64,000 nucleotides of DNA from a plasmid, in assembly GCF_057098645.1 (NCBI RefSeq), contig NZ_JBXSPU010000002.1; one strand, written 5' to 3'. The notes under the pieces were generated by a model. The model worked only from the letters and a program-made list of their open reading frames with translations. It ran no database searches and had not been told where the DNA came from. Numbering within the stretch: position 1 is the first letter of the stretch; each line of letters opens with the position of its first letter. Shown here in pieces: positions 25,525 through 43,467 of this stretch. A program made the position numbers and the translations under genes.

Positions 25525-25534
25525 GCTTTTCTCC

Positions 25535-26494: not shown

Positions 26495-26582
26495 TCATCA
26501 CTCCGGTTTCAATAAAGCAGCGCAACACCGTTACGTCTTCAACGACTTCTGAAGAGTCGATATGCAGCCGGTAGTTGTACTT

Positions 26583-26861: not shown

Positions 26862-26864
26862 GCT

Positions 26865-27531: not shown

Positions 27532-27547
27532 CCAGAGCCCCCGGAAC

Positions 27548-28084: not shown

Positions 28085-28305
28085 TATTTACCTGTAGAGT
28101 GCTTGCAAAATGGCATCTGAATCGATCGCAGTTTGGCATTCGAATCGATCATGATTTGGCATCCATCTCCGATCACAGTTTGGCATCACAATCGATCACG
28201 ATTTGGCATGCTTCCGATCATTGATTGGCATCCTGCCAGTCACTCCGGGAATTAACTCTTTTCACCACAGTCTCCATTGCCGTGTTTAAACCAGTGGAGA
28301 CGTCA

Positions 28306-29871
28306 ATGTCCAGAAAGAGAAAATCCAGGAGCACTATGGAAACCTGTTTTAAGATCCTTCAGCTCAAGTTCGACAAGAAGCTGACTAACCGTTGTATCGG
28401 ACTGACGTTACACATCAGCGCCTCAACCGTTTTTGAGGTTCTTGCCCGCTTCAAAGCCTCTTCTCTGTCATGGCCATTACCTGCTGATATATCCCATGAC
28501 ACGCTGGAGAAACTCATTTTTCCGCCCAAAGACACCTTTGCATCAGAGCTTGTAATGCCTGACATGTTGTACTTCGATACGGAAATGAGAAAACCAGGTG
28601 TGACGCGGCAACTGTTGTGGATGGAATACAAGGCACAGGCGGGTAACAAAGCGATGGGATACTCGCACTTCTGCCGTTGCTACCGGGAGTGGAAAAAAAC
28701 GCGACGTCTCTCCATGCGCCAGGAGCATCGTGCCGGCGAAAAGCTTTTTATCGACTTCTGTGGTCCTACGGTTCCTGTTATTAATCCGGACACCGGTGAG
28801 ATACGCCGCGTGGCAATCTTCGTGGCCGTAATGGGGGCGTCCAACTATACCTACGTTGAAGCGTGCGAAGGTCAGGACATGATGTCATGGTTAAATGCCC
28901 ACAGCCGTTGCCTGACCTTCCTGGGCGGCGTACCGAAGCTGCTCATCCCCGATAACCTCAGAAGCGCAGTGAAAAAGGCCGATCGATATGAGCCTGTCAT
29001 CAACGACAGTTATCAGGCACTGGCTGAGCACTATGGCACGGTTATCATCCCGGCCCGACCACGCAAACCTAAAGATAAACCAAAAGCAGAAAACGGCGTC
29101 CTCATCGTTGAACGATGGCTTCTTGCCCGCATCCGTAATGAAACCTTCCACACGCTCAGGGCGCTGAATGCGCGCCTTAGGGAGTTACTGACAGACATGA
29201 ATAACCGGCCAATGAAGGGGTACGGCAATCAAACCCGTGCAGAACGCTTCCGCATACTGGATGCGCCAGCACTCTCTCCGCTGCCTCTGGCACCTTATGA
29301 ATACACGGAATACAAAGCTGTGAAGGTTGGCCCTGACTACCACGTTGAATATGCCCGTCACTGGTACTCCGTTCCACACGAACTGGTCGGTCAGCGTCTG
29401 TCACTGAAGGCGGGGCAGTCGGTGGTACAGCTCTGGCACAAGGGGCAGTGTGTGGCGCAACATCCGCGCAGCACACATGAATATAAACACACAACCAATC
29501 CGCTTCACATGCCAGAGCGCCACCGGCAGCACGGGACATGGACACCGGAACGCCTGATCGAGCAGGGAAAACGTACGGGCCCGTCCACAGGCCGGGTGGT
29601 TGAATCCATGCTGAAGGCAAAACCCCATCCGGAACTGGCTTATCGTGCAGTTCTGGGGCTGCTGGCACTTCAGAAAAAATACGGCCCGGAACGGCTGGAA
29701 AAGGCCTGTTACGTTGCCCTGCACTATAACGCCCCTGACAGACGCTTTATCGACAATCTGCTGCGTCACCATCGGGAGAACCTGGAGCTTCCATTATCCC
29801 GCCAGGGCGAACAACATCCGGCATATGCTTCAGAGCATGAAAACCTGCGTGGTCCGGGCTACTACCACTGA
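28306..29871 (+). CDS. istA: IS21-family transposase IstA
   Basis: ORF 28225..29871; N-terminal HTH, central DDE integrase-like core; start codon choice uncertain. Confidence 0.8.
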   Translation: MSRKRKSRSTMETCFKILQLKFDKKLTNRCIGLTLHISASTVFEVLARFKASSLSWPLPADISHDTLEKLIFPPKDTFASELVMPDMLYFDTEMRKPGVTRQLLWMEYKAQAGNKAMGYSHFCRCYREWKKTRRLSMRQEHRAGEKLFIDFCGPTVPVINPDTGEIRRVAIFVAVMGASNYTYVEACEGQDMMSWLNAHSRCLTFLGGVPKLLIPDNLRSAVKKADRYEPVINDSYQALAEHYGTVIIPARPRKPKDKPKAENGVLIVERWLLARIRNETFHTLRALNARLRELLTDMNNRPMKGYGNQTRAERFRILDAPALSPLPLAPYEYTEYKAVKVGPDYHVEYARHWYSVPHELVGQRLSLKAGQSVVQLWHKGQCVAQHPRSTHEYKHTTNPLHMPERHRQHGTWTPERLIEQGKRTGPSTGRVVESMLKAKPHPELAYRAVLGLLALQKKYGPERLEKACYVALHYNAPDRRFIDNLLRHHRENLELPLSRQGEQHPAYASEHENLRGPGYYH

Positions 29872-29887
29872 CAGAAGGAACAACAGT

Positions 29888-30643
29888 ATGAGTGATAACC
29901 TGTTAAACAAACTGACCCAACTGAAACTCCCGGCGATGGCCGGGAGCCTGATACGGCAGCGGGAAACGCCTCAGACCTACGACGAACTGTCGTTCGAGGA
30001 AAGGCTGACGCTGCTGGTTGATGACGAGCTTCTGAGCAGGGAAAACAGCCGTGTGGCACGGTTGAGAAAAAATGCCGGCCTGAAATACCAGGCAACACCG
30101 GAAGGGCTGCGCTATCCGGCCTCAAGAGGTCTGCGGGCTGAACAGATGAGAGAACTGCTGAACGGCCACTACATAACCCACAGGAAAAACCTGCTGATAA
30201 CCGGTCCGACAGGATGTGGCAAGAGCTGGATAGCCAATGCGCTGGGCGAACAGGCATGTCGACAGAAACACAGCGTCCGGTACTGTAGAACCGGGCGATT
30301 ACTGGAACAACTGGCTCAGGGACGTGTTGATGGCAGCTGGCTGAAATATCTGAAACAGTTGCAAAAAATACAGGTTCTAATCCTGGACGATCTGGGGCTG
30401 GAACAGTTAAGTAACGCCCAGTGTAATGACCTTCTGGAGCTCATAGAGGATCGTTACGGACAAAGCAGCACGATAGTGGTAAGCCAGTTCCCGGTAGATA
30501 AATGGCATGGTCTGATGGAGAACCCAACAACAGCAGATGCCATCCTGGACAGACTGGTACATAACTCACACCGAGTGGTCCTTCAGGGAGAGTCACTGAG
30601 GAAAAATCCCCCGGTAGTGGAAAGCAGCGAAAAAACGCGTTAA
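29888..30643 (+). CDS. istB: IS21-family helper ATPase IstB
   Basis: Walker A GPTGCGKS and Walker B VLILDDLG in ORF starting MSDNLLNKL... Confidence 0.85.
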   Translation: MSDNLLNKLTQLKLPAMAGSLIRQRETPQTYDELSFEERLTLLVDDELLSRENSRVARLRKNAGLKYQATPEGLRYPASRGLRAEQMRELLNGHYITHRKNLLITGPTGCGKSWIANALGEQACRQKHSVRYCRTGRLLEQLAQGRVDGSWLKYLKQLQKIQVLILDDLGLEQLSNAQCNDLLELIEDRYGQSSTIVVSQFPVDKWHGLMENPTTADAILDRLVHNSHRVVLQGESLRKNPPVVESSEKTR

Positions 30644-30792
30644 AAAGCGGTAGAAAAAGTTAAGTTCCCGGTTGATCGAATGGATGCGAATCGCTGATCG
30701 GACTTCGATGCCAATCCGTGATCGAATAGAGCGGAATACGCACTCGTTATCATCAAGATAAAGAGGTTATTCTGCATGATTGTAAGGAAGAG

Positions 30793-31110
30793 ATGGGATG
30801 GGATATCTTTTTCGAACAGGACTATTTGTTGCAAGAAAACAAACTGGCAATGAAATGGACTGATCGGGATATAATGGATGTCTATTCTAAAGTATTTAAA
30901 TCAACAATTAATTTGTTTGAAAAACTTGTCGTTAATAACAAGTTAACCTTAAGAGATACTTTTGGTTGGGTAATCGTAAACCCTACATTTGAACGCCAGT
31001 TTGAATGGATTGAGTCAGAAGTATTCGAAATCGTAGGAACTCATCTTGGTTACAACGTTGCCGCTATCAGAACACAGATGGCGACCGCGTGTAGGATGAC
31101 TTTCCACTAA
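30793..31110 (+). CDS. hypothetical protein
   Basis: 105-aa ORF; start codon uncertain. Confidence 0.35.
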   Translation: MGWDIFFEQDYLLQENKLAMKWTDRDIMDVYSKVFKSTINLFEKLVVNNKLTLRDTFGWVIVNPTFERQFEWIESEVFEIVGTHLGYNVAAIRTQMATACRMTFH

Positions 31111-31169
31111 CATGCCACTGGCAAACATCTGCCAGCGGGCGGTGTTTGCATTTTACCGGAGTTTTAAAA

Positions 31170-32222
31170 ATGACTAACGCCGCAACTGTATTAAAATCCG
31201 ACAATTCCGTACAGGAAGAAATCATTGGTAATCTGTTACCCGCAAATGTTATATCAAGTAAGATGTTTGCGAATAAAGAACAGTATTATCTTGTCAAAGC
31301 AAAAGATTTATTTGGCATTCCTGAGATGGATGAGGATATGATTGTTCCAGTGTTTAAAAAGTTTTCTCCATATCGTGCGAATCTGAATAAGGACTATATA
31401 CCAAATTCTCGAATACTTGAGCAAGTAGTAAAATTGCTTGTAAGTAACGATATAGATTTGAGTGTATGCCTGAAAGGAGAATCTGGATCAGGTAAGACTG
31501 AAATGGCAATGTATATTAGCCATATGCTGAACTGGCCGCTAACCATAAAGCAAATCAACAGCAATATTCGCGCTGATGAGCTGGAAGGTGAGCGTAGTCT
31601 TATTAACGGTAACACCAGTTTTGTGCCTAGCGAGCTTGTAACGGCATTTCAGGAAGGCCACCTCATTCTTCTGGATGAAGTGGACAAGATTGACCCTGAT
31701 ACTGCCGCAAAGCTTCATATGCCTATAGAGCGAAAGCCCTGGTCACTAGCTGCCAACGGTGGCGAAGTGGTTAAGGCAAATAAGTTTACGCGGTTTATGG
31801 GTACTTCAAACACAAACATGAGTGGGGGATCTCGTAAGTTCGTTTCATCGCAGCGGCAGGATGCAGCGTTTATCAAGCGCTTCCTGATTGTGGAGATGGA
31901 AAGGCCTTCAGAGGTTGCATTAACCAACGTTTTGCTTAAACGCTACAATAACCTGCCTATGCTGGTAATTGAAAAATTCGTTTCGGTAGCCGTTGCAGTA
32001 AACAACACAGGAACTGACGACAGTGTAATGGATATACGCCAGCTTGTGGCATGGGTTGGAACGTCAATGACGTTAAAGACCATGTCCTTACTGGATACAT
32101 TTAAAATTGCTTTTGCGTCGGCTCTGCCTGCACATGCCACTGGTATGGTGTTGGAAGCCATCGACTTAATTCTCGGTGACGACAAGAACCGTACAATGGA
32201 GTATTACACTGCAAAAAAGTAG
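31170..32222 (+). CDS. AAA+ ATPase (MoxR/CobS-like)
   Basis: Walker A GESGSGKT, Walker B LILLDEVDK; GGAG RBS 10 nt upstream of ATG at 31170 (ORF track begins at 31146); ~350 aa as in CobS/MoxR-class ATPases. Confidence 0.7.
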   Translation: MTNAATVLKSDNSVQEEIIGNLLPANVISSKMFANKEQYYLVKAKDLFGIPEMDEDMIVPVFKKFSPYRANLNKDYIPNSRILEQVVKLLVSNDIDLSVCLKGESGSGKTEMAMYISHMLNWPLTIKQINSNIRADELEGERSLINGNTSFVPSELVTAFQEGHLILLDEVDKIDPDTAAKLHMPIERKPWSLAANGGEVVKANKFTRFMGTSNTNMSGGSRKFVSSQRQDAAFIKRFLIVEMERPSEVALTNVLLKRYNNLPMLVIEKFVSVAVAVNNTGTDDSVMDIRQLVAWVGTSMTLKTMSLLDTFKIAFASALPAHATGMVLEAIDLILGDDKNRTMEYYTAKK

Positions 32223-32260
32223 TTATAGATGGGACGAGTTATCAGAAGGCTGAATGCCGT

Positions 32261-32530
32261 GTGACAGACTTTGCTCATCTTACGTTTTACGGTTTTCTGA
32301 GTGCAAACGGAACTGAAACTTTCGTGATTGCACAAGATGGAAATCAATATATAGGTCTGAAGCAGCATAATAATGACTATTCATTTATTTGTTATGAAGT
32401 CTGTAACAAAGATATGGAAGCCATGATTAAGGGCCTTGAATCAAAAGGATTCATGTATCAAGGGAGCATTCAATCGGCGGATGTCGAAAATGAATTTCCT
32501 GGAATTCTTTTAACAACACTTGAAAAGTAA
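32261..32530 (+). CDS. hypothetical small protein
   Basis: 89-aa ORF with GTG start; followed by hairpin element. Confidence 0.35.
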   Translation: MTDFAHLTFYGFLSANGTETFVIAQDGNQYIGLKQHNNDYSFICYEVCNKDMEAMIKGLESKGFMYQGSIQSADVENEFPGILLTTLEK

Positions 32531-32540
32531 TATTATTAAC

Positions 32541-32577
32541 CCTATCGGGAAATCTTTCCCGACGGGGAGGTTTTCCC
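32541..32577 (+). promoter_or_regulatory. GC-rich inverted-repeat element with downstream RBS-pairing segment (island hairpin family member 1)
   Basis: CCTATCGGGAAATCTTTCCCGACGGGGAGGTTTTCCC; GGTTTTCC can pair with the downstream GGAGAAAACC that contains the RBS. Confidence 0.55.
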
Positions 32578-32600
32578 ATTTCTAAATCTGGAGAAAACCT

Positions 32601-33728
32601 ATGACTTTCAATACTTCTAAACTTAATAAAGTTTCTGCAAAGGAAATCAGTGAAAACTTTATAAAAGCATATCCTGACTTGCAGGAAGGTGCTGTTATAA
32701 CAAAAATTGAAATTAGTGGGTGTCAGGGCTCTCGGCGAACTGATAAAATCGAACTGTCCTATGGCGGTGATGATATAACAGACCAGAAGAGCGTGTCTAA
32801 AAGCGAAGTTCGCTGGATAGACATAAAGGCACTGAGTTTCAAAAGCACTATCACTAGTCGAATTTCAACCCTTTGTTCACGGTTGTGCATCCGCTATAGC
32901 AATATGTGGATACTGCCAGTTGAAAGGATGGAGGAGTTTCTCGAAGAGGCACAAGAAATCGAACGTGAATTTCAAGCCGGTATCCAGAACGTGGTTGATA
33001 ACTATGACACTCATATTCAGGCTGAGAAAGATCGCAGTCCGTTGATGTCAGATTTAATTGACCAGTTGAAATTGACTAAAGATGATTTTGTTAAATCATT
33101 CCGGTTTAATCTGGCACATTTCATTCCGTTTTCACCGATTAGTGTGGAGGGGGATGAAACGCAGGACTTTTATCAAGAACAACTGATAACTGACTTGGCC
33201 GATGAAGCTATGAAGGTTTATACAAAAATCAGCAAAAATGATAATTTGCGTTCCAGCACGATTGACCGATTAAAGCAGATGCAGGATAAAATAATTAGCT
33301 TCATGTTCATTCATAAAGAGGCTGTTGTTCTTGCAGAAGCTATTAAGCATATCATGAATAATTTACCAAAAGGTGCCATTTCTTCTCCCCGTGATGTTGC
33401 GGTATTAAAGCAGTGGTTCTATTTCATGAGCGATGCGTCAATGCTGAAACGTATTATCTCCGGTGAACAAAAGGTAACCGACTGGCTGGATTCCATAACC
33501 CGGTCATTCAATATCGATTCACAGGTTACAGCGGCTAACTCTCTGAATACTGCTGAGGATGATGTTTTTTCTTCAGCAAATGTTTTCAGAGAAGACCCGG
33601 TTGAAGATCTTGAGAACAAGGCAGTGAATGCACCTGAGCCTGCTGTTGGCCCTGATGAAGATGTTTCTATTCAGGCCAGTGGTAGTAATAGAGCATTTGA
33701 CTGCGAACTCGAATTGACCGGTTGGTAA
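32601..33728 (+). CDS. hypothetical protein (375 aa) between the AAA+ and VWA genes
   Basis: ORF with good RBS; charged helical central region; no family recognised. Confidence 0.55.
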   Translation: MTFNTSKLNKVSAKEISENFIKAYPDLQEGAVITKIEISGCQGSRRTDKIELSYGGDDITDQKSVSKSEVRWIDIKALSFKSTITSRISTLCSRLCIRYSNMWILPVERMEEFLEEAQEIEREFQAGIQNVVDNYDTHIQAEKDRSPLMSDLIDQLKLTKDDFVKSFRFNLAHFIPFSPISVEGDETQDFYQEQLITDLADEAMKVYTKISKNDNLRSSTIDRLKQMQDKIISFMFIHKEAVVLAEAIKHIMNNLPKGAISSPRDVAVLKQWFYFMSDASMLKRIISGEQKVTDWLDSITRSFNIDSQVTAANSLNTAEDDVFSSANVFREDPVEDLENKAVNAPEPAVGPDEDVSIQASGSNRAFDCELELTGW

Positions 33729-33747
33729 TTTAGTCTTGTAAAAATAT

Positions 33748-33803
33748 CCCCAGATGGGTACTTCACCATCTGGGTGAGTACCCTTTATCAAATAAAGGTA
33801 CTC
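33748..33803 (+). promoter_or_regulatory. GC-rich inverted-repeat element (family member 2) plus RBS-proximal hairpin
   Basis: CCCCAGATGGGTACTTCACCATCTGGGTGAGTACCC followed by GAGTACCCTTTATCAAATAAAGGTACTC ending 3 nt before the ATG. Confidence 0.55.
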
Positions 33804-33805
33804 AA

Positions 33806-35818
33806 ATGAAATTTGATTTAAAATCTTCACCACGCCATATTCAACGCCTGACGAATATAGCCAGCGTGATAAGCGGTATAAATGGGATTTATGTAATTAT
33901 TGACAATAAGGTGAGTACACCTTATTTCAACACCCAAAACAATGTCTGTGTTTTACCTAACGGTGATTATAGCGATGAGAGATTTGTCAAGCTAATTGAA
34001 GGATTCATATGTCATGAAGCAGGACACGGTCGTTATACAGAGCATGAAGTATACCGTGAAGCTTTTGTTGGAGAATTGATCAATGCAGATGGCTTCATCA
34101 GTATTGATGATGACTTGAAGGCTGATTTTCAAAACCTAAAACAAAAGCAAAAAGCATATGCTCGTGCTTGTCGACTAAAAGGACTTATTAATCTTTTTGA
34201 TGATGTCCAGATGGAAGCGAAGACGGGTATTGATTATCAGGAGGCAAAAAAACGCCTCGCGGTGACTTATGCCTTGATGGTTGAAGCTGGGCGTATGACG
34301 GTTGATATTTCTTCAACCCCTCAAAACCCGGTTCAGTTTATTGAAATGTACCTGCTTAATACATTGCGGGTTAACGTTCTCCAACAAGAAGGGCATAAAG
34401 AAACGCTTGACCCATTTTTCGATTATGCAAAGAAAATCCTTGCACCTGTAACTTCAGAAGTCGATGAGATCATTCATCAAGCTCTAAGTTGCAAAAGTAC
34501 GCAAAATTGCGATTCTCTGGCGCGTAAAACTCTGGCTCTTTTAGAGCGTTTAAGGGATGAAGCAAAAGAGAAACAGCAAGAAGAGGAGCAGTCGAAAGAC
34601 CCGCATGACGATACAGATGAATCATCTGGCTCTGAGAATGAACCTGATACCGAACCCAATGGTGATAGCCAGGGTGAAGGGGATGGTGATAAAGAAGGTC
34701 AAGGCGATGATTCTGGTGATGGTAAGGCGCCTGCGGAAGGTAATGGGTTACCGGACCAATCCGGAGGGGATGAACAAAATGCTGAGAACTCTAACGGCGA
34801 ACCTGATGGTGAGTCTGAAGGTGATGAATCGGCGACCCCCGGCTCGGATGATGCTGACTCGACACCTTCCCTAAACGACAGTTCAAATGGAAATTCTTCT
34901 GATGGGGAAAGTAACTTTTCTCCTGAACAGTGGGATATGCTTGCCAAATTGCTGGATGATTTTTTAAACAGTGATGAGGAAAGCGAGGATTTTCATGAGG
35001 TTCTTGCAAAAGAGATCTCCGTAATTGCTGCCAGTGTGTCGGATGAGGTTAAAGCTGAATTTGGTGCAAGTGAGTGGGATGTTCCAGATTTGAACATTGA
35101 TCTGAATGTCTACAATGAAGCATTAAATATCAGCCAGACCCTTGGGGCAGATTTATCTGTTTTACAGCAGGTAAAAATGCGTGGTCAATTTAAAACCCGT
35201 GATAGAGGCTTGTCATTCGATATTAATCGACTGATCCAGTCTCCGATGGGTGTTAGGGATGTATTTCGGTCACAAAGCGAATCTAAAAACCGGGGCCACG
35301 TCGGCTTGGTCATTGTTCGTGATATTTCAGGTTCAATGAGTCTGGAACACCGTTATATCCATGCAATTAAGACTGACCTTGCATTAACTCTGGCAATTGA
35401 AGCTATTTCAAAAATGCATGTTGCTAATGTGATTTATCCGTTTGTAGACAAAGATTTTGAAGTTATCAAAACGTTTGATGAAAACGCGGAAGAGAAACTT
35501 TCAAAATTCTCACTTGGCTGCAAGGGCAATAATACCCCAACGGGTTCTGCATTAAATGCTGCTTTAGAGTTGTTACTTGAAAGCCAGTTTGACAGGAAAA
35601 TTGTTTTCCTTATTACTGATGGTTATCCGACTGAGTCGGCTTACACCATTAATGATGTTTTTTCAGTTGCTGAAAGTAACGGCATTGAAATCGCTGGTGT
35701 TGGTATTAAAACTGATGTGTTGATGGGTTTTAATGAGGGCACCTTCGTAAATGTTGATGATATTTCTTTATTGCCGAATGAGGTCAGTAAATTAGTACAT
35801 CAAATTCTATCTAATTAA
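33806..35818 (+). CDS. von Willebrand factor A (VWA) domain protein with long acidic low-complexity linker (CobT-like architecture)
   Basis: C-terminal VWA/MIDAS-like motifs (LVIVRDISGSMS, FLITDGYPT); ~120-aa D/E/G/S-rich segment; adjacent to the AAA+ gene. Confidence 0.7.
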   Translation: MKFDLKSSPRHIQRLTNIASVISGINGIYVIIDNKVSTPYFNTQNNVCVLPNGDYSDERFVKLIEGFICHEAGHGRYTEHEVYREAFVGELINADGFISIDDDLKADFQNLKQKQKAYARACRLKGLINLFDDVQMEAKTGIDYQEAKKRLAVTYALMVEAGRMTVDISSTPQNPVQFIEMYLLNTLRVNVLQQEGHKETLDPFFDYAKKILAPVTSEVDEIIHQALSCKSTQNCDSLARKTLALLERLRDEAKEKQQEEEQSKDPHDDTDESSGSENEPDTEPNGDSQGEGDGDKEGQGDDSGDGKAPAEGNGLPDQSGGDEQNAENSNGEPDGESEGDESATPGSDDADSTPSLNDSSNGNSSDGESNFSPEQWDMLAKLLDDFLNSDEESEDFHEVLAKEISVIAASVSDEVKAEFGASEWDVPDLNIDLNVYNEALNISQTLGADLSVLQQVKMRGQFKTRDRGLSFDINRLIQSPMGVRDVFRSQSESKNRGHVGLVIVRDISGSMSLEHRYIHAIKTDLALTLAIEAISKMHVANVIYPFVDKDFEVIKTFDENAEEKLSKFSLGCKGNNTPTGSALNAALELLLESQFDRKIVFLITDGYPTESAYTINDVFSVAESNGIEIAGVGIKTDVLMGFNEGTFVNVDDISLLPNEVSKLVHQILSN

Positions 35819-35824
35819 ACTCTA

Positions 35825-35868
35825 CCCAATCGGGGCAAAACGACGCCCGGTTGGGTCGCTTTGCTCCC
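35825..35868 (+). promoter_or_regulatory. GC-rich inverted-repeat element (family member 3)
   Basis: CCCAATCGGGGCAAAACGACGCCCGGTTGGGTCGCTTTGCTCCC; TTGCTCC pairs with the GGAGCAA of the downstream RBS. Confidence 0.5.
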
Positions 35869-35889
35869 TGAAGGATTAAGGAGCAATAT

Positions 35890-36111
35890 ATGACTCAGAT
35901 AAAGACTTACCGTGTCGAGTATGAAAAAGTCGGGACGATGCATCGTGTCCGTATTTTTGGTCGCATGGGTGAAATTGTCAAAAGTGAATTGCCAGAAGAA
36001 AGAATTCTCCGGGATGTATCTATACCAGAGGGTAATGGAGAAATGGCAACGTCAATGGTTGATGGTTTTATCCAGCGTCTTGAAAATATCGGCTTCAAGA
36101 CTGAAGCGTAA
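35890..36111 (+). CDS. hypothetical small protein (73 aa)
   Basis: ORF with AAGGAG RBS. Confidence 0.45.
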   Translation: MTQIKTYRVEYEKVGTMHRVRIFGRMGEIVKSELPEERILRDVSIPEGNGEMATSMVDGFIQRLENIGFKTEA

Positions 36112-36116
36112 TTGTT

Positions 36117-36203
36117 GAGGGCTCTTGTGGGCCCTCATTCTTAGATTCTGCGTTGTGGGTTTCTCCCTGTTTTCTGCATCGCAGAGGGCATTGAGAAACC
36201 CAC
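36117..36203 (+). promoter_or_regulatory. pair of inverted repeats upstream of the toprim gene
   Basis: GAGGGCTCTTGTGGGCCCTC and GTGGGTTTCTC...GAGAAACCCAC ending at the start codon. Confidence 0.5.
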
Positions 36204-36204
36204 A

Positions 36205-37458
36205 ATGCCAGATAAGAGAGAACAAATGACTTATGCATCCCAGGCTGTTAAGCGTACACCACATGAAGTCACTGACCACTTTATAAAAATGGTTCACGCT
36301 CGTATAGCGGAAGTATCAGGCTGGCGCTATGTATTCGATAGAATACCGGCATTTAAAGACGCTTGTGATAAAGCACCTGGCCAGGTTCCTTGCCCATTTA
36401 GTGGGGTCGGGAAATCAAAGTTCCGGTTCCGTAAAAAGGACCTCTTTACCGGTTGTGCCATTCACAATGATTTTCCAGTGAATGCATTTTGTGACGGTAT
36501 TGATGTATTGGCAGAGTACTACAAGCTGAGCAAGACCCAGACTTGTAAGAAGATCCTGACTGATTTCTTTGGGATGGATTTGTACGCTCCATTAACTGAT
36601 GCGGATCTCGAAAGTGAACGTCGTTATAAATCAACAGTTCGTGCAACCGAAACGCTTGACAGCGATGAAGTTGAAAAACGAGGGCGTAAACTTGAAGTGA
36701 TATATCACTATACCGGTGAAATCAAACCTGAGAGCCCTGTGTGGGTGTATCTCCGAAATCGAGGTCTTAATCGAGTTCTGAGCAACCTTCCCAAGGATTT
36801 AGGTCTGAACAAACGACTTTACTACATGGATAAGTCACTGGAAAAACCCACGATTTACCCGGGAATGATCGCAATTTATCGCGATACCCGTGGGCGTCCT
36901 CTGACAATCCACAGAACGTTCGTCGAGTTAAATGGTGATAAGGCACATGTTGAGAATCCGAAACTGATGATGAAACCGCCTGCCGATATGACTGGCGGCT
37001 CAATTCAGCTGTACGATCCACACTTCAATCCAGGTACCCGTACCTGGACGTTAGGTGTGGCTGAAGGCATAGAAAACGCGCTGTCAGTTACTGAAGCGAC
37101 TTCAACACCGTGCTGGGCCGCGAGCTCTGCCTGGTGCCTTGAAAACGTTGAAGTGCCGGATAGTCTCCTGCCTCCCCCTGGTGTGAAAGTAATACAGTTT
37201 TACATCTGGGCGGATAAGGATCTTGTGAATACAAAAGGCACTTCCCCGGGAATGGAGTCAGCTAAACGACTTCAGGAACGTATGAAAGAGTTTTTTGCAA
37301 AGCGATATCCCACTTCAGAGCTGACAATTAAAGTCTTTGAACCTGATTTCGATATTCCTGTAGGGAAGAAAGGAGTCGACTGGAACGATGTACTAAAATT
37401 AACAGGACCGGATGGATTCCCCGTAAAATGGGCTCCTGAATGTCTTGCTCAGCTTTAA
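36205..37458 (+). CDS. toprim-domain protein with N-terminal Cys/His-rich region (primase- or OLD-nuclease-like fold)
   Basis: toprim-like motifs LGVAEGIENALS (E) and IWADKD (DxD); N-terminal CPFSG...GCAIH...FCDG. Confidence 0.55.
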   Translation: MPDKREQMTYASQAVKRTPHEVTDHFIKMVHARIAEVSGWRYVFDRIPAFKDACDKAPGQVPCPFSGVGKSKFRFRKKDLFTGCAIHNDFPVNAFCDGIDVLAEYYKLSKTQTCKKILTDFFGMDLYAPLTDADLESERRYKSTVRATETLDSDEVEKRGRKLEVIYHYTGEIKPESPVWVYLRNRGLNRVLSNLPKDLGLNKRLYYMDKSLEKPTIYPGMIAIYRDTRGRPLTIHRTFVELNGDKAHVENPKLMMKPPADMTGGSIQLYDPHFNPGTRTWTLGVAEGIENALSVTEATSTPCWAASSAWCLENVEVPDSLLPPPGVKVIQFYIWADKDLVNTKGTSPGMESAKRLQERMKEFFAKRYPTSELTIKVFEPDFDIPVGKKGVDWNDVLKLTGPDGFPVKWAPECLAQL

Positions 37459-37460
37459 AT

Positions 37461-37500
37461 CCGATAACTCCCCCGCCTTTTCAGGCCGGGGTGGGTTATC
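37461..37500 (+). promoter_or_regulatory. inverted repeat downstream of toprim gene (possible terminator or processing hairpin)
   Basis: CCGATAACTCCCCCGCC...GGCCGGGGTGGGTTATC followed by T-rich sequence. Confidence 0.4.
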
Positions 37501-37732
37501 TCTTTAGTGTTTATTTACGTTAAATCCTAAACAGATAATCCGATTTCCTTCGTGAAAATCACCTGTTATTCAGGTTTTTTTTACGGCTGAGATGCTTGCT
37601 CAGTTTAATAAATGTGCGATACATCTGGCTACGGTCGGTTGTATGACATGGTATATCCATAAAACTTAAAACCCCTGACGGGAGTATTACCGTTAGGGTG
37701 ATGCTCATCGTTAAATATCGGAGAGCATTGTT

Positions 37733-38257
37733 ATGAATATTGAAAATCAAGATTTATTTAATACGTTCGCTGCTGTGATTTCATCTCATATCGTTGAGCA
37801 ACCATCTTCGTGTTATTACCTTCATGATAATGAAATTGACTTCACGATTTTAAAACACAGCATAATAGATAAAGACAAAAACCTGTTGTACGTTATTCGT
37901 CCTTCAGGAACCTGTTTGTTGCGTTGTGATAAATACTTCTTTCCGAATTACTATCTTACAAGTCGTGGAGATTATAAAGCATTTAAGTATGTGCATTTTA
38001 ATCTTGCAACACGAGAAGCGGAAGAAATCACCTGGCAGCAAGCTTTTGAAATTTTGTCCAAGCCGGGAAGACCTCCATTAAGAGGTTCACTTGGTAAATT
38101 TGATTATTTAAAACTTGTTATTGATGATCTTCGTGCGCGAGGGTATGCCGATTTCCTTCCAGCATACAACCTTGATGGCCTTCGTCACTTTGCAGTAAAG
38201 GATGAGCGACCATCACTTGTCAGTTATATCGACAATGTCATGGCACTTTGCGCATAA
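37733..38257 (+). CDS. hypothetical protein (174 aa)
   Basis: ORF with RBS; no family recognised. Confidence 0.45.
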   Translation: MNIENQDLFNTFAAVISSHIVEQPSSCYYLHDNEIDFTILKHSIIDKDKNLLYVIRPSGTCLLRCDKYFFPNYYLTSRGDYKAFKYVHFNLATREAEEITWQQAFEILSKPGRPPLRGSLGKFDYLKLVIDDLRARGYADFLPAYNLDGLRHFAVKDERPSLVSYIDNVMALCA

Positions 38258-38281
38258 AGATAACACATATTTTTACTACAT

Positions 38282-38317
38282 CCCTGATGGCACCTCCCAT
38301 CGGGGTGGCCCTCAGAG
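38282..38317 (+). promoter_or_regulatory. GC-rich inverted-repeat element (family member) interrupted by IS903B
   Basis: CCCTGATGGCACCTCCCATCGGGGTGGCCCTCAGAG; the last 9 bp are the IS903B target duplication, repeated at 39375-39383. Confidence 0.55.
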
Positions 38318-39374
38318 GGCTTTGTTGAATAAATCAGATTTCGGGTAAGTCTCCCCCGTAGCGGGTTGTGTTTTCAGGCAATACGCACGCTTTCAGGCAT
38401 ACCTGCTTTCGTCATTTTGTTCAGCGCTCGTACCAGGGCCATAGCCTCCGCAACCTGACCATCGTAGTCACGCAGCGTCAGTGAACCCCCGAACAGCTGT
38501 TTTACCCGGTACATCGCCGTTTCCGCTATCGAGCGACGGTTGTAATCTGTTGTCCATTTCCACCGCGCATTACTCCCGGTCATTCGCTGATTAGCCACTG
38601 CACGGTTACGGTCTGCATATTCACCGGGCCAGTAGCCCGCACCTTTTCGGGGAGGGATAAGCGCGCTGATTTTCTTACGCCGCAGTTCATCGTGACATAG
38701 CCGGGTATCGTAAGCGCCATCGGCGGCGGCTGACCTGATTTTCCGGTGGGTTTGCCGGATTAACCCGGGGAAGGCCTCTGAGTCCGTAACGTTGTTCAGC
38801 GACAGGTCTGCACAGATGATTTCATGTGTTTTACTGTCAACGGCGAGATGCAGCTTACGCCAGATACGGCGGCGTTCCTGGCCATGCTTTTTGACTTTCC
38901 ACTCGCCTTCACCGAAGACCTTCAGCCCGGTGGAATCAATCACCAGATGTGCGATTTCACCCCGGGTGGGCGTTTTGAAACTGACATTAACCGACTTTGC
39001 CCGCCTGCTGACACAGCTGTAATCCGGGCAGCGTAGCGGAACGTTCATCAGAGAAAAAATGGAATCAATAAAGCCCTGCGCAGCGCGCAGGGTCAGCCTG
39101 AATACGCGTTTAATGACCAGCACAGTCGTGATGGCAAGGTCAGAATAGCGCTGAGGTCTGCCTCGTGAAGAAGGTGTTGCTGACTCATACCAGGCCTGAA
39201 TAGCTTCATCATCCAGCCAGAAAGTTATGGAGCCACGGTTGATGAGGGCTTTATTGTAGGTGGGCCAGTTGGTGATTTTGAACTTTTGCTTTGCCACGGA
39301 ACGGTCTGCGTTGTCGGGAAGATGCGTGATCTGATCCTTCAACTCAGCAAAAGTTCGATTTATTCAACAAAGCC
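38318..39374 (-). mobile_element. IS903B-like element (1057 bp), copy 2
   Basis: identical transposase ORF (38374..39342) and IRs as copy 1; flanked by 9-bp direct repeat CCCTCAGAG. Confidence 0.9.
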
Positions 39375-39400: not shown

Positions 39401-40279
39401 ATGAAATTAGCTACAGATCTGGTCAATGCGGTTCTGATAAAGAATGGCATTGTACCAACTTCCATTAATGAGTTGCCTGTAACGTCGCTGGTAAAGCCAT
39501 TGACACAAGTGCATCTCAGCCTGTATCTGAAAACAACGCATTTATCTCAGTTCGTCCCTGACTACGTTGAGTCTCTGAAAGATTGTCCGGTTTCGTATGA
39601 TATCGGCCTTGAACTTCAGCAGTGTATCAACAGTGCTGAATTGCTCTGTGAAGACATGGAGTCACTTGAGTTTATCTCTGTATGGATAGAGCTCTATACG
39701 TGTAATTCAAAGCAACAGCGGTTTGAGAAAAGTAACTTTTCTTTTCGAACTGAAGATATCGAGCTGGCTAAGATGCTGTCTTGCTCGCATGAAATCTTAA
39801 TAAGTCAGGCGGCTTGTTTCTGGCTTTTGTATTTTGAAGATTTCATGAAATATGTTCGTAATAGGCTCTGTGCATTACTCAGACAGGTTTTAATTTTGAT
39901 TGCAGGACTGCGAAATGTATACCTGCAACGGAATGAAGATCAGTTGATTAAGAGAGTTAAGCACGGGAATGAAATGCTGGAGGTGACTCTTAAAGCTGTT
40001 GCACTATGTTCAATAGAAAGGTATCTGAAATCATATGCCTCTTTACGAACAGAAGCGGCGGCTTCTGGGTTTATCAAATGCATTCAGTCTTATATCAGTA
40101 CTGGTTGGAGACATGGCTATATAGTCTGTCAATATTCAAAAAATGGACGGTCTCTTGGTAAGTCATTACCACTTTTTATAAAAGAGACATCTGAGCATAA
40201 TATACAGAAACGTGTCAATCGCCTTATATCTTCCACGATTTCGGGGCGAAATAAAGATTTAGGTCTTTACGATTTCTGA
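39401..40279 (+). CDS. hypothetical protein, tandem paralog family member 1 (292 aa)
   Basis: shares N-terminal h-x-x-A-h-L motif (LVNAVL) with the four downstream ORFs. Confidence 0.55.
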   Translation: MKLATDLVNAVLIKNGIVPTSINELPVTSLVKPLTQVHLSLYLKTTHLSQFVPDYVESLKDCPVSYDIGLELQQCINSAELLCEDMESLEFISVWIELYTCNSKQQRFEKSNFSFRTEDIELAKMLSCSHEILISQAACFWLLYFEDFMKYVRNRLCALLRQVLILIAGLRNVYLQRNEDQLIKRVKHGNEMLEVTLKAVALCSIERYLKSYASLRTEAAASGFIKCIQSYISTGWRHGYIVCQYSKNGRSLGKSLPLFIKETSEHNIQKRVNRLISSTISGRNKDLGLYDF

Positions 40280-40288
40280 TTAACATTA

Positions 40289-40325
40289 CCCATCCGGGGA
40301 TTACATCCCTGATGGGTGTAATCCC
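40289..40325 (+). promoter_or_regulatory. GC-rich hairpin element (family member)
   Basis: CCCATCCGGGGATTACATCCCTGATGGGTGTAATCCC: stem GGGGATTACATCCC/GGGTGTAATCCC, loop TGAT; GTAATCC also pairs with the downstream GGATTAC at the RBS/start. Confidence 0.6.
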
Positions 40326-40349
40326 ATTTTTTATTTAAGTGAGGATTAC

Positions 40350-41285: not shown

Positions 41286-41308
41286 TACTTATTATCAACT
41301 TATCTAAT

Positions 41309-41342
41309 CCCTGAGGGAATTCTTCCCTTGGGGAGGATTCCC
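41309..41342 (+). promoter_or_regulatory. GC-rich hairpin element (family member)
   Basis: CCCTGAGGGAATTCTTCCCTTGGGGAGGATTCCC; full stem pairing needs G-U wobble pairs, so an RNA-level structure is suggested. Confidence 0.6.
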
Positions 41343-41362
41343 TCTTAACCGAGGGCTACAAA

Positions 41363-42283: not shown

Positions 42284-42292
42284 TTAATTTTA

Positions 42293-42330: not shown

Positions 42331-42355
42331 TTTCTTCATTAAAGAGGAAGTGAAT

Positions 42356-43443: not shown

Positions 43444-43467
43444 TTTAATAATCCTGAGGAAGTGAAG

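What the first reader, a model, noticed from the sequence alone, without database searches (positions are those of the whole stretch)
31170..37458. AAA+ ATPase / VWA protein / toprim-domain protein module: candidate NTP-driven conflict or DNA-establishment system
A MoxR/CobS-like AAA+ ATPase (GESGSGKT, LILLDEVDK) sits with a CobT-like VWA protein that carries a ~120-aa acidic disordered linker, an intervening 375-aa unknown, a 73-aa ORF and a toprim-domain protein with a Cys/His-rich N-terminus. AAA+/VWA pairs act as ATP-driven remodelling machines, and toprim domains are the catalytic cores of primases and OLD-family nucleases (as in Gabija GajA or PARIS AriB). The combination on a plasmid island could be a phage-defence, anti-defence or plasmid-establishment (priming) system. 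I cannot match it to a named system from sequence alone.
Basis: inference. Interest (0 to 1): 0.75.

Follow-up and report, generated by a model that had tools for sequence, protein, structure and literature searches.

The report
Plasmid entry-protection motor plus primase
This is a conserved backbone gene block of large antibiotic-resistance plasmids (R27/IncHI type) encoding an ATP-powered three-protein machine, whose motor's relative in IncC plasmids lets incoming plasmid DNA escape the new host's restriction enzymes, followed by a DNA primase; how the machine works has not been tested.

Summary
The ORFs are real and are 100% identical to plasmid R27. They are IncHI backbone, not an island. 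The "375-aa unknown" is a DUF3150 protein.

The VWA protein is CobT-like. The toprim protein is a DnaG-type primase, not an OLD nuclease.

In 47 of 47 loci with enough flank, from plasmids, ICEs and genomes of several phyla, the order AAA+ → DUF3150 → VWA is kept. That triad is the real unit. The primase is linked in only 6 of 39 loci.

IncC and SXT/R391 carry the same genes. In IncC the AAA+ homologue Vcrx089, with Vcrx090, gives anti-restriction in the recipient cell. Deleting both raises EcoKI/EcoBI restriction 400-900-fold. IncHI lacks Vcrx090, and nobody has tested DUF3150 or the VWA protein.

DUF3150, Vcrx090, WGR-like neighbours and Exo share an acidic tail ending in an aromatic residue. 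I read this as a common docking peptide.

Best reading: an ATP-driven CobS/CobT-like remodelling and peptidase machine plus primase that helps the plasmid establish in new hosts. It is not cobaltochelatase and not a listed phage-defence system. The mechanism is inferred.

The parts
30743..31110 (+). 3' remnant (ORF 30793-31110, 105 aa) of a 328-aa IncHI backbone gene (WP_000810456 in pYPE10-190k-tetX4). It is truncated at 30743 by the IS21-family element and its associated rearrangement.
   Evidence: Identity to the reference plasmid starts at 30743. The IS21 transposase is at 28225-29871.
31170..32222 (+). CobS/MoxR-type AAA+ ATPase (350 aa), homologue of IncC Vcrx089 and SXT/R391 Orf70. Walker A K109, Walker B D169/E170.
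   Evidence: Pfam AAA_5 6e-32. PHROG 249 2e-33. PDB: Midasin AAA 9e-21, CobS 1e-10, NorQ, CbbQ. 28% identity, 5e-27 to Vcrx089 and 30%, 6e-31 to the SXT protein.
32261..32530 (+). 89-aa ORF in the variable slot between the ATPase and DUF3150 genes. Annotated in IncHI1 relatives, absent at this position in IncHI5. Function unknown.
   Evidence: No Pfam match. No profile match to the WGR-like proteins that fill this slot elsewhere.
32601..33728 (+). DUF3150 protein (375 aa). Folded core is residues ~13-310 (small beta-sheet plus long helical bundle). Tail 311-375 is disordered and acidic and ends ...ELTGW. Positional equivalent of IncC vcrx094. Proposed adaptor or client of the machine.
   Evidence: Pfam PF11348 2.4e-22. 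AF2 pLDDT 83.6. No informative fold match. 125 of 149 family representatives end in F/W/Y against 12% background. Always lies between the AAA+ and VWA genes.
33749..33774 (.). 9-bp-stem GC-rich inverted repeat in the DUF3150-VWA intergenic spacer. Role unknown.
   Evidence: flagged on the minus strand; no T-run on the + strand.
33806..35818 (+). CobT-like protein (670 aa). M48/M56-like gluzincin domain at 1-244 (H70, E71, H74, D133, E137 invariant). Acidic disordered linker ~245-365. Helical 'shaft' region. VWA domain with complete MIDAS (D506, S508, S510, T577, D605). Positional equivalent of IncC vcrx095.
35890..36111 (+). 73-aa ORF conserved in the IncHI lineage. Function unknown.
   Evidence: 30% identity, 2e-8, to the 76-aa ORF at the same position in IncHI5.
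36205..37458 (+). DnaG-type primase-like protein (417 aa). Degenerate zinc-ribbon region (C63...H87...C96), then DUF7146, then a Toprim domain with E287, E290, D337, D339. Orthologue of the SXT/R391 toprim gene that sits just before traF/traH, which I take to be s073.
   Evidence: Pfam. PHROG 510 'DNA primase' 4e-19. Invariant acidic residues. 30% identity, 8e-36, to the SXT protein. The SXT orthologue matches 800 phage records, annotated mostly as DNA primase or primase/helicase.
37472..37495 (+). Terminator-like hairpin 14 bp after the toprim stop codon. Probable end of the transcription unit.
   Evidence: 8-bp stem, 5 GC pairs, T-rich tail.

Best explanation
**What it is.** The block is the IncHI (R27) version of a gene set that conjugative elements of the MOBH/MPF_F lineage carry next to their transfer genes. 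That lineage includes IncHI1/2/5, IncC/A, SXT/R391 and relatives.

**The core.** Three proteins form the conserved unit:
- a CobS/MoxR-type AAA+ ATPase;
- a DUF3150 protein;
- a CobT-like protein that joins an M48-like zinc-peptidase domain, through a long acidic linker, to a VWA domain with a MIDAS site.

**Proposed function.** I propose the machine works in the newly entered (recipient) cell to protect and establish the incoming plasmid.

**Inferred steps, by analogy with the solved CobS-CobT-CobN chelatase:**
1. The ATPase forms a hexameric ring.
2. The CobT-like protein inserts a shaft into that ring.
3. Its MIDAS and peptidase-like domains hold DUF3150, which sits in the position CobN occupies in the chelatase.
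4. ATP hydrolysis pulls on this assembly to remodel, evict or cleave a DNA-bound host protein. The best candidate is a type I restriction enzyme.

DUF3150 and the optional WGR/Vcrx090-type proteins would be interchangeable adaptors. They would plug in through a shared acidic, aromatic-tipped C-terminal tail.

**The primase.** The downstream toprim protein is a DnaG-type primase. It would start complementary-strand synthesis on the transferred single strand.

**What is shown.** Homology, domain content, invariant catalytic residues, gene order, and the anti-restriction phenotype of the IncC ATPase gene pair.

**What is inferred.** That DUF3150 and the VWA protein take part in that phenotype, the architecture of the complex, its target, and the primase activity.
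For: **1. Homology and synteny.**
- The same genes in the same order occur in an SXT/R391 ICE (ssb-bet-exo-AAA-x-DUF3150-x-VWA-..-toprim), IncC, IncHI5, and Xanthomonas and Pseudomonas plasmids.
- In my HMM scan of 53 loci, all 47 with enough flank have AAA → DUF3150 → VWA.
- The AAA and DUF3150 genes often abut or overlap.

**2. Function of the homologue.**
- IncC vcrx089 (AAA_5 + CbbQ_C) with vcrx090 gives evasion of type I restriction. It is complemented only from the recipient.
- It is co-transcribed with ssb-bet-exo and vcrx094 (PMC7498323).
- Deleting vcrx089-90 raises restriction by EcoBI 424-fold and by EcoKI 906-fold (PMC11602122).
- The window ATPase is 28% identical to Vcrx089, 5e-27.

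**3. Regulation with transfer.**
- The SXT operon that starts at s089 and encodes ssb-bet-exo is SetCD-activated. The SXT module lies directly downstream of exo on the same strand, so its membership of that operon is likely but not shown.
- In IncC, bet/exo and many unknown genes are AcaCD-activated.

**4. Machine parts are intact.**
- Walker A and B.
- MIDAS D-x-S-x-S...T...D invariant.
- HExxH plus D133 and E137 invariant in 42 of 42 N-domains.
- The N-domain model's best fold matches are M48/M56 peptidases.
- The genuine CobT N-domain is reported to be M48C-like, the CobT shaft enters the CobS ring, and CobN sits between the CobT domains near the MIDAS site (bioRxiv 10.64898/2026.07.21.739949).
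- The best PDB match of the VWA profile is CobT, 1.3e-16.

**5. A shared tail.**
- 84% of DUF3150 representatives end in F/W/Y after an acidic tail; background is 12%.
- Vcrx090 ends ...EDHFF. The SXT 259-aa protein ends ...NYYF. WGR-like ORFs end ...NWF...SWF...EWF. Exo ends ...FYF or ...FYW.

**6. Neighbours handle incoming ssDNA.** They include SSB, Bet/ERF, Exo, RadC, WGR and a DnaG zinc ribbon, next to TraF, TraH and the coupling protein in a Geomobilimonas ICE.

**7. Primase.** PHROG 510 at 4e-19, Toprim E/DxD residues invariant, and phage primase relatives.
Against: - **No Vcrx090 in IncHI.** The IncC phenotype was mapped to vcrx089 plus vcrx090. IncHI has no detectable Vcrx090. The window ATPase is only 28% identical to Vcrx089.
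- **DUF3150 and VWA never tested.** The held literature reports no test of them. The IncC TnSeq contrast flagged only vcrx089-093. That contrast compared Cas+ with Cas- recipients, both restriction-proficient, so it was not designed to reveal restriction evasion.
- **Weak transfer phenotypes in SXT.** Deletions of s067, s068 and s070 lowered transfer 10-fold or less, and s073 is not required (PMC2791158). Those matings posed no stated restriction barrier. The mapping of these s-numbers onto module genes is only partial: s068 is probably the ATPase and s073 the toprim gene, by position.
- **No direct evidence of contacts.** I could not run a multimer prediction.
- **The tail may have another partner.** Acidic aromatic tails also occur on SSB-type proteins, so the partner could be a host protein and not the machine.
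- **Expression in this window is uncertain.** The native upstream region has been replaced by IS21.
Confidence: 0.55

Rival explanations
1. It is a DNA replication or recombination accessory machine, not an anti-defence device. The AAA+/VWA/DUF3150 complex would load, unload or recycle SSB, the annealing protein, the exonuclease or the primase on the transferred strand. It would act like a mediator or clamp-loader, and any restriction phenotype would be indirect.
For: - The triad is frequently linked to SSB (11 of 33 loci), Bet/Exo (9 of 33), ERF, RadC and primase.
- Exo and IncC Bet carry the same aromatic C-terminal tip as DUF3150, and element SSBs end ...DPF or ...VPF. This suggests one interaction network.
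- The strong CRISPR-context defect of the IncC vcrx089-90 deletion could not be complemented. [quoted passage not shown]
Against: - The vcrx089-90 deletion was fully complemented in trans for the restriction phenotype, and it disappears in hsdR-deleted recipients.
- The effect is much larger for type I than for type II systems.
- Most loci have the triad without Bet/Exo within 6-10 kb.
Confidence: 0.2
2. It is a donor-side conjugation factor. A MoxR/VWA chaperone would mature or remodel part of the MPF_F transfer apparatus or the relaxosome, for example by metal insertion or by removing the relaxase.
For: - It lies directly downstream of Tra2 (trhF-W-U-N, trhI helicase) on the same strand in intact IncHI plasmids.
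- It sits between traN and traF/traH in SXT and IncC.
- In SXT and IncC the adjacent ssb-bet-exo operon is switched on by the transfer activators SetCD/AcaCD.
- Known MoxR/VWA pairs are maturation factors (NorQ/D, CbbQ/O).
Against: - IncC vcrx089-90 is complemented from the recipient and not from the donor.
- Deletions in SXT cost 10-fold or less in transfer.
- The triad also occurs in a locus where no transfer genes are seen within 10 kb (Desulfovibrio An276).
Confidence: 0.08
3. It is an NTP-driven anti-phage defence or abortive-infection system carried by the plasmid. The toprim protein would be an OLD-like nuclease effector.
For: - MoxR-vWA ternary systems are proposed conflict systems (my own knowledge, not tested here).
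- The AAA+ protein gives weak PADLOC matches to IetA and DolB (2e-5).
- Toprim domains occur in OLD nucleases.
Against: - The IetA match covers only ~40 residues around the P-loop and the DolB match ~95 residues. No PADLOC family matches DUF3150 or the toprim protein, and the VWA protein has only one marginal match (TmtA, 0.0031).
- The genes are core, syntenic backbone across plasmid and ICE families, not hotspot cargo.
- The toprim protein has no ATPase domain, and its relatives are phage primases.
- Toprim is absent from 33 of 39 triad loci.
Confidence: 0.05
4. It is a genuine cobaltochelatase CobS/CobT pair, or an auxiliary metabolic gene pair acting on tetrapyrroles.
For: - CobS and CobT are the closest solved relatives of the two proteins.
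- PHROG 249 is labelled 'porphyrin biosynthesis'.
Against: - CobS equivalog 35.6 bits against a cut-off of 558.55. The putative cobaltochelatase model scores 27.8 against 779.45.
- No CobN or any cobalamin gene nearby.
- DUF3150 takes the third-gene position in 47 of 47 loci.
- The HExxH site is invariant in the plasmid and ICE proteins. I recall that genuine CobT lacks it, but I did not test that.
Confidence: 0.01

Closest known systems
IncC 'host defence evasion' (hde) operon, vcrx089-vcrx090 anti-restriction pair (pVCR94, pKAZ3; 'vcrx089_090' in AntiDefenseFinder)
   Same: - Homologous AAA_5 ATPase (28% identity, 5e-27).
- Same downstream partners, DUF3150 (vcrx094 by position) and CobT-like VWA (vcrx095).
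- Same kind of element (MOBH/MPF_F), next to traN.
   Different: - IncHI has no Vcrx090 homologue.
- No ssb-bet-exo lies between the ATPase and DUF3150 in IncHI.
- Pfam reports CbbQ_C for Vcrx089 but not for the IncHI ATPase.
- No phenotype has been measured for IncHI.
- The published system is defined as two genes and does not include DUF3150 or the VWA protein.
SXT/R391 ICE core genes downstream of exo (orf70/s068 ... s073)
   Same: Same genes in the same order: AAA+, DUF3150, HExxH-VWA (1e-21) and toprim (8e-36). The adjacent ssb-bet-exo operon, which starts at s089 and lies directly upstream on the same strand, is SetCD-activated.
   Different: - SXT has extra genes in the slots: a 259-aa WGR-like protein, a 146-aa ORF, a RadC-like protein and a 113-aa ORF.
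- SXT keeps a canonical CPxH...CxxC zinc ribbon in the primase.
- Published deletions of s067, s068 and s070 gave drops of 10-fold or less in transfer, and s073 is called a non-essential hypothetical.
Aerobic cobaltochelatase CobS-CobT-CobN
   Same: - AAA_5 motor.
- Partner protein with an M48-like N-domain, a ~90-120-residue acidic linker, a shaft and a VWA/MIDAS domain.
- A third subunit encoded alongside.
   Different: - Scores are far below the curated cut-offs.
- The third gene is DUF3150 (about 300-450 aa, helical) and not the 137-kDa CobN.
- The HExxH...E site is intact and invariant here.
- Mobile-element context with no cobalamin genes.
Other MoxR/VWA remodelling pairs (NorQ/NorD, CbbQ/CbbO, Midasin/Rea1)
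   Same: Same ATPase clade by sequence: Midasin 9e-21, NorQ 3e-7, CbbQ 2e-5. NorD is among the VWA profile matches. The general logic is that MIDAS grips an acidic residue and the ring pulls (established knowledge of these families).
   Different: Those systems lack a DUF3150 partner and, to my knowledge, a fused intact zinc-peptidase domain (not tested here). Their clients are metabolic enzymes or pre-ribosomes.
DnaG-type primases of plasmids and phages (RP4 TraC, ColIb Sog, P4 alpha; T1-like and Stx phage primases)
   Same: - Zinc-ribbon region, then a catalytic core, then a Toprim domain with E...DxD.
- The EGIENA stretch resembles the EGYATA motif of TraC/Sog/alpha (from memory, not tested).
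- PHROG 510 'DNA primase' 4e-19.
- The SXT orthologue matches 800 phage records, annotated mostly as primase.
   Different: - No helicase domain.
- The zinc ligands are degenerate in IncHI.
- No match to any solved primase by sequence.
- Activity untested.
OLD-family nucleases (Gabija GajA, PARIS AriB)
   Same: A Toprim domain only.
   Different: No N-terminal ABC-type ATPase domain and no PADLOC match. The homologues are primases.

Membership tests
MoxR/AAA_5 AAA+ ATPases (CobS, NorQ, CbbQ, Midasin clade) | AAA_5 domain with intact Walker A and Walker B | tested here: met
   Pfam AAA_5 6.2e-32. GESGSGKT at 103-110 and LILLDE at 165-170. PDB matches to Midasin, CobS, NorQ and CbbQ.
MoxR/AAA_5 AAA+ ATPases (CobS, NorQ, CbbQ, Midasin clade) | Encoded with a VWA/MIDAS partner protein | tested here: met
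   The VWA protein follows in 47 of 47 loci. MIDAS D506, S508, S510, T577, D605 are invariant.
Cobaltochelatase CobS/CobT/CobN | Scores above the curated equivalog cut-offs for CobS and CobT | tested here: not met
   CobS TIGR01650 scores 35.6 bits against a cut-off of 558.55. No CobT equivalog hit for the window protein. Putative cobaltochelatase TIGR02442 scores 27.8 against 779.45.
Cobaltochelatase CobS/CobT/CobN | CobN subunit and cobalamin pathway genes in the neighbourhood | tested here: not met
   The neighbours are transfer genes, hypothetical proteins and IS elements. The third gene is DUF3150.
Cobaltochelatase CobS/CobT/CobN | CobT architecture: M48-like N-domain, acidic linker, VWA with MIDAS | tested here: met
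   compared.
IncC vcrx089_090 anti-restriction system | Vcrx089-type ATPase | tested here: met
   28% identity over 284 aa, 5e-27. It shares DUF3150-VWA partners and element type.
IncC vcrx089_090 anti-restriction system | Vcrx090 partner protein | tested here: not met
   No BLAST match to any ORF of the window or of the IncHI loci. Vcrx090 and the 89-aa ORF have no Pfam family. hhalign of the 89-aa ORF against WGR-like slot proteins gives probability 0.13.
IncC vcrx089_090 anti-restriction system | Restriction-dependent transfer defect when deleted, complemented in the recipient | not testable with these tools
   Known only for IncC. No IncHI data were found.
M48/M56-type gluzincin metallopeptidases | HExxH plus a downstream Glu as third zinc ligand, conserved across the family | tested here: met
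   H70, E71, H74, D133 and E137 are invariant in 42 of 42 sequences and in 17 of 17 full-length proteins.
M48/M56-type gluzincin metallopeptidases | Zincin fold | tested here: met
M48/M56-type gluzincin metallopeptidases | Peptidase activity | not testable with these tools
The domain could be a metal-binding or docking site only.
DnaG-type (Toprim) primases | Toprim domain with conserved Glu and DxD | tested here: met
   Toprim_3 3e-10. E287, E290, D337 and D339 are invariant.
DnaG-type (Toprim) primases | CHC2-type zinc-binding domain at the N-terminus | tested here: inconclusive
   SXT, IncC and Xanthomonas orthologues have CPxH...CxxC. IncHI keeps C63 but has S in place of H and IHND in place of CxxC. 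IncHI5 has no second or third Cys.
DnaG-type (Toprim) primases | Sequence kinship with annotated primases | tested here: met
   PHROG 510 'DNA primase' 4.3e-19 over residues 61-399. The SXT orthologue matches phage primases with up to 90% coverage. No solved-structure match by sequence.
OLD-family nucleases (GajA, AriB) | N-terminal ABC-type ATPase domain fused to Toprim | tested here: not met
   Only DUF7146 and Toprim_3 were found. No PADLOC match.
Catalogued anti-phage defence systems (PADLOC-DB v2) | Significant full-length match of the component proteins | tested here: not met
   Only short or partial matches for the ATPase (IetA ~40 residues around the P-loop, DolB ~95 residues; best 2e-5). 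Nothing for DUF3150 or toprim, and only a marginal TmtA match (0.0031) for the VWA protein.

The most novel reading that the evidence does not exclude
The AAA+/DUF3150/CobT-like triad is an unrecognised, widespread ATP-driven 'evictor-protease' of mobile elements. The DUF3150 family has about 1,900 clusters at 50% identity and occurs in IncHI, IncC, SXT/R391 and many ICEs.

A chelatase-type motor would have been re-purposed, with its M48 peptidase site kept active, to strip or cleave DNA-bound host defence proteins such as type I restriction enzymes from incoming DNA.

It would be programmed by interchangeable adaptors (DUF3150, WGR/Vcrx090-type proteins). These share an acidic, aromatic-tipped C-terminal docking code, which is also present on the element's Exo and Bet recombination proteins.
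Probability: 0.25. Interest if true: 0.85.

Novelty: new variant of a known kind. Interest (0 to 1): 0.6.

Why it matters
IncHI1/HI2, IncC and SXT/R391 elements carry tet(X4), mcr-1, NDM and other last-line resistance genes between species. What lets them establish in restriction-proficient new hosts helps set their host range.

The only functional handle so far is a two-gene anti-restriction phenotype in IncC, by a mechanism its authors called novel and left open. Three results here turn that open question into specific experiments and candidate targets for blocking plasmid spread:
- The ATPase always travels with DUF3150 and a CobT-like peptidase/VWA protein.
- The peptidase and MIDAS sites are invariant.
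- Several operon proteins share one C-terminal docking-type tail.

It would also be a clear case of a metabolic chelatase motor re-used in genetic conflict.

Tried and rejected
- **Defence system.** Rejected: PADLOC gave only weak, mostly P-loop-level matches.
- **Genuine CobS/CobT.** Rejected on curated cut-offs and context.
- **Toprim versus solved structures.** No match with a single sequence or with a profile.
- **Vcrx090 in IncHI.** Searched with BLAST against all ORFs, Pfam and hhalign against WGR-like slot proteins. Nothing was found.
- **T4SS export signal as the meaning of the C-terminal tip.** Considered and set aside, because IncC vcrx089-90 complements from the recipient and not the donor.
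- **Phage distribution.**
  - One 'phage' record hit is really an IncA/C plasmid.
  - An IMG/VR scan with main-clade motifs found none.
  - BFVD holds about eight DUF3150-like proteins from uncultured phages whose context I could not examine.
- **Locus scans with broad alignments.** These failed for lack of conserved stretches. A narrower alignment worked.
- **Literature.**
  - One paper search was wasted on 'InChI' and von Willebrand noise.
  - Garriss 2013 (PMC3624592) is not held.
  - The TnSeq supplement of PMC7498323 is not held, so I could not check insertion counts for vcrx094 and vcrx095.
- **The look-up of encoding contigs on family representatives.** Two tries returned contigs too short to be useful.

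Full report
**1.

Six co-oriented ORFs occupy 31170-37458 on the + strand with 39-94 bp spacers.
- AAA+ ATPase, 350 aa.
- An 89-aa ORF.
- A 375-aa ORF.
- A 670-aa VWA protein.
- A 73-aa ORF.
- A 417-aa toprim protein.

The VWA protein's residues 245-365 are 32% D/E and 4% hydrophobic. A terminator-like hairpin follows the toprim stop at 37472-37495.

The block is not a chance feature.
- Window 30743-38317 is 100% identical to many plasmids. 1,681 plasmid records match and 1,466 of them are typed conjugative.
- The DUF3150 protein is identical to that of R27, NC_002305.

**2. Setting.**

In an uninterrupted relative (pYPE10-190k-tetX4; MOBH relaxase, MPF_F) the block lies on the same strand directly downstream of the Tra2 transfer genes. 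The order there is trhF, trhW, trhU, trhN, the TrhI helicase and three hypothetical genes. IncHI5 has the same order. So this is IncHI backbone, not an island.

In this window two IS events have altered the surroundings.
- An IS21-family element (transposase 28225-29871) truncates the gene just upstream at 30743. The DNA beyond it is an inverted distant segment. The native upstream context and the Tra2 linkage are therefore lost here.
- An IS5/IS903-like element (38318-39374) is inserted downstream with a 9-bp duplication.

**3. What the proteins are.**

*ATPase.*
- Pfam AAA_5, 6e-32.
- The nearest solved relatives are Midasin AAA modules (9e-21), CobS (1e-10), NorQ and CbbQ.
- It is far below the CobS equivalog cut-off, 35.6 against 558.55 bits.

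*375-aa protein.*
- Pfam DUF3150, 2.4e-22.
- A full HMMER scan with a family profile finds 1,913 cluster representatives at 50% identity.
- Its AlphaFold model is confident (pLDDT 83.6, pTM 0.75). It shows a small beta-sheet and a long helical bundle over residues 13-310, then a disordered tail.

*VWA protein.*
- It is CobT-like. A profile of 17 homologues hits genuine CobT best in the PDB (1.3e-16), across the linker and the VWA domain.
- The MIDAS residues D506, S508, S510, T577 and D605 are invariant.
- The N-terminal 244 residues carry HEAGH. H70, E71, H74, D133 and E137 are invariant in 42 of 42 sequences from very different hosts.
- This agrees with a 2026 preprint on CobSTN, which reports three things:
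  - The CobT N-domain is M48C-like.
  - A CobT shaft enters the CobS ring.
  - CobN sits between the two CobT domains, next to the MIDAS site.

*Toprim protein.*
- Pfam DUF7146 plus Toprim_3, and PHROG 510 'DNA primase' at 4e-19.
- E287, E290, D337 and D339 are invariant.
- Orthologues in SXT, IncC and Xanthomonas keep a canonical CPxH...CxxC zinc ribbon. The IncHI version is degenerate.
- The SXT orthologue matches 800 phage records, annotated mostly as DNA primase or primase/helicase.
- There is no ATPase domain and no PADLOC hit. The OLD-nuclease reading is therefore not supported.

**4. The real unit is a triad.**

The same genes occur in the following elements.
- An SXT/R391 ICE: ssb, bet, exo, AAA+, a 259-aa gene, DUF3150, a 146-aa gene, HEAAH-VWA, a RadC-like gene, a 113-aa gene, toprim, and then traF/traH.
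- IncC: AAA+, a hypothetical gene, ssb, bet, exo, DUF3150 and VWA, with toprim about 5 kb downstream.
- A Xanthomonas plasmid.
- A Pseudomonas plasmid that has no adjacent toprim.

A motif scan of one genome per species returned 46 more loci from Gamma- and Betaproteobacteria, Desulfobacterota and Lentisphaera. I built HMMs for each family and scanned all ORFs.
- All 47 loci with enough flank have AAA+ → DUF3150 → VWA in that order. The six incomplete cases are cut by contig ends.
- The AAA+ and DUF3150 genes often abut or overlap.
- Toprim lies within reach in 6 of 39 loci, SSB in 11 of 33, and Bet/Exo in 9 of 33.

Two loci with precomputed Pfam annotation show the company the triad keeps.
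- A Geomobilimonas ICE has, in order: coupling protein, TraF, TraH, SSB, several genes, AAA_5/CbbQ_C, WGR, DUF3150, CobT/CobT_C, several genes, a DnaG zinc ribbon, RadC and Fic.
- A Desulfovibrio locus has ERF, the triad and an AAA_25 protein.

**5. Functional evidence from relatives (literature).**

*IncC (Roy et al. 2020, PMC7498323).*
- The pVCR94 'host defence evasion' operon has vcrx089 (AAA_5 + CbbQ_C) and vcrx090 conferring evasion of type I restriction.
- This is complemented only when both genes are expressed in the recipient.
- vcrx091-093 (ssb, bet, exo) repair Cas-induced breaks.
- An RT primer in vcrx094 recovers vcrx087, vcrx089 and bet on one transcript.
- By gene order, vcrx094 is the DUF3150 gene and vcrx095 is the VWA gene.

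*pKAZ3 (PMC11602122).* Deleting vcrx089-90 raises restriction by EcoBI 424-fold and by EcoKI 906-fold, and by EcoRV and EcoVIII about 10-fold.

*Other points.*
- The pair is catalogued as 'vcrx089_090' in AntiDefenseFinder.
- In SXT, deletions of s067, s068 and s070 cost 10-fold or less in transfer, and s073 is described as a non-essential hypothetical (PMC2791158).
- The operon that starts at s089 and encodes ssb-bet-exo is SetCD-activated. The module genes lie directly downstream of exo on the same strand.
- None of these papers, as far as I could search them, discusses DUF3150, the VWA protein or IncHI.

*Link to the window.* The window ATPase is 28% identical to Vcrx089 (5e-27) and 30% identical to the SXT protein (6e-31). 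IncHI has no detectable Vcrx090.

**6. A shared C-terminal tail (new here).**

- Of 149 DUF3150 representatives, 125 end in F, W or Y, and 134 have an aromatic residue in the last two positions. Background for long ORFs in the same loci is 12%.
- The preceding 55 residues are 22% D/E and 5% K/R. The window protein ends ...CELELTGW.
- The gene slot between the ATPase and DUF3150 is empty in most loci. Otherwise it holds a small WGR-like protein or a larger protein.
- Those slot proteins end the same way...NWF...SWF...EWF...HWFF, and SXT ...NYYF. IncC Vcrx090 ends ...AEQEDHFF.
- The Exo proteins end ...FYF...FYW or ...YYF. IncC Bet ends ...SYY. The element SSBs end ...DPF or ...VPF.

I read this as a common docking peptide. 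Which surface receives it could not be tested. Candidates are the AAA+ ring, the M48-like groove, the MIDAS site or a host protein.

An export-signal role is unlikely for Vcrx089/090, because donor expression does not complement.

**7. Most likely mechanism.**

*Shown.*
- A chelatase-type AAA+ motor, a CobT-like partner with intact MIDAS and zinc-site residues, and DUF3150 are inherited as a fixed three-gene unit on mobile elements.
- They sit among genes that handle incoming single-stranded DNA.
- In IncC the motor gene is required in the recipient to escape restriction.

*Inferred.*
- The three proteins form a CobS-CobT-CobN-like stack, with DUF3150 in the CobN position.
- ATP hydrolysis transmitted through the shaft remodels, evicts or cleaves a DNA-bound host protein. 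Type I restriction enzymes are the leading candidate.
- DUF3150 and the WGR/Vcrx090-type proteins act as alternative adaptors.
- The primase then primes the complementary strand.

The idea echoes ClpXP-dependent restriction alleviation, in which HsdR is degraded. That comparison comes from my own knowledge and was not tested here.

I put 0.55 on the general reading, an establishment and anti-defence machine plus primase. I put about 0.25 on the detailed mechanism.

**8. Rivals.**
- A replication or recombination mediator, with the restriction effect indirect: 0.2.
- A donor-side transfer-apparatus chaperone: 0.08.
- Phage defence with a toprim nuclease: 0.05.
- A true cobaltochelatase: 0.01.

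The evidence for and against each is given in the rival entries.

**9. Novelty and verdict.**

The genes themselves are known as conserved hypothetical backbone genes. The ATPase family has a published anti-restriction phenotype in IncC.

As far as the searched literature shows, four things are new.
- The obligate AAA+/DUF3150/CobT-like triad.
- The invariant M48-type site.
- The shared tail.
- The absence of Vcrx090 from the IncHI version.

I file it as a new variant of a known kind, with interest 0.6. It concerns clinically dominant resistance plasmids, rests on a real published phenotype with an unsolved mechanism, and is directly testable. Its function in IncHI remains inferred.

Noticed in passing
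window 28104-30742: An IS21-family element (IstA-like 548-aa ORF at 28225-29871; IstB-like ORF ending at 30643) sits at an inversion junction. The sequence to its left (23049-28104) is the reverse complement of reference-plasmid DNA that normally lies about 7 kb downstream of the module. The module has therefore lost its Tra2 neighbours and its native upstream region.
   Followed up: partly
window 38318-39374: An IS5/IS903-like insertion (322-aa transposase at 38374-39342, minus strand) lies between the 174-aa ORF and the downstream gene array. Flanking reference coordinates overlap by 9 bp, consistent with a 9-bp target duplication.
   Followed up: partly
window 39401-46076: A run of co-oriented hypothetical genes of about 300 aa (292, 311 and 306 aa, and more in the reference). 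At least two are distant paralogues (28% identity over ~100 aa, 2e-8). No family match; function unknown.
   Followed up: partly
window 2266-13216: Resistance cargo: floR (2266-3480), two ISCR-type transposases (4612-5958 and 9320-10813), a CatB-like acetyltransferase (6668-7297), an ABC-F ribosomal-protection protein (7345-8958), tet(X) (11152-12309) and the macrolide hydrolase EstT (12299-13216). Part of it, 2-6 kb, is GC-rich (59-61%).
   Followed up: partly
loci L002, L004, L010, L011, L029, L036, L054 (Exo and Bet genes): The lambda-Exo-like nucleases of SXT, IncC and related elements, and IncC Bet, end in the same aromatic tip (...FYF, ...FYW, ...YYF, ...SYY) as DUF3150 and Vcrx090. This hints at one interaction hub for the whole operon.
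   Followed up: partly
locus L055 16761-20884 (Geomobilimonas ICE): Just downstream of the triad are a Fic protein and a bacterial ubiquitin-like conjugation set (BubE, ThiF/E1, Prok-E2_E, Multi_ubiq) on the opposite strand.
   Followed up: no
window 33749-33774: A perfect 9-bp GC-rich inverted repeat lies in the 78-bp spacer between the DUF3150 and VWA genes. It could be an RNA processing or stability element.
   Followed up: no
BFVD hits: About eight proteins from uncultured Caudovirales phages share the DUF3150 fold (Foldseek E 5e-12 to 3e-3), and one is already named DUF3150. Whether they sit beside phage CobS/CobT-like genes was not checked.
   Followed up: no
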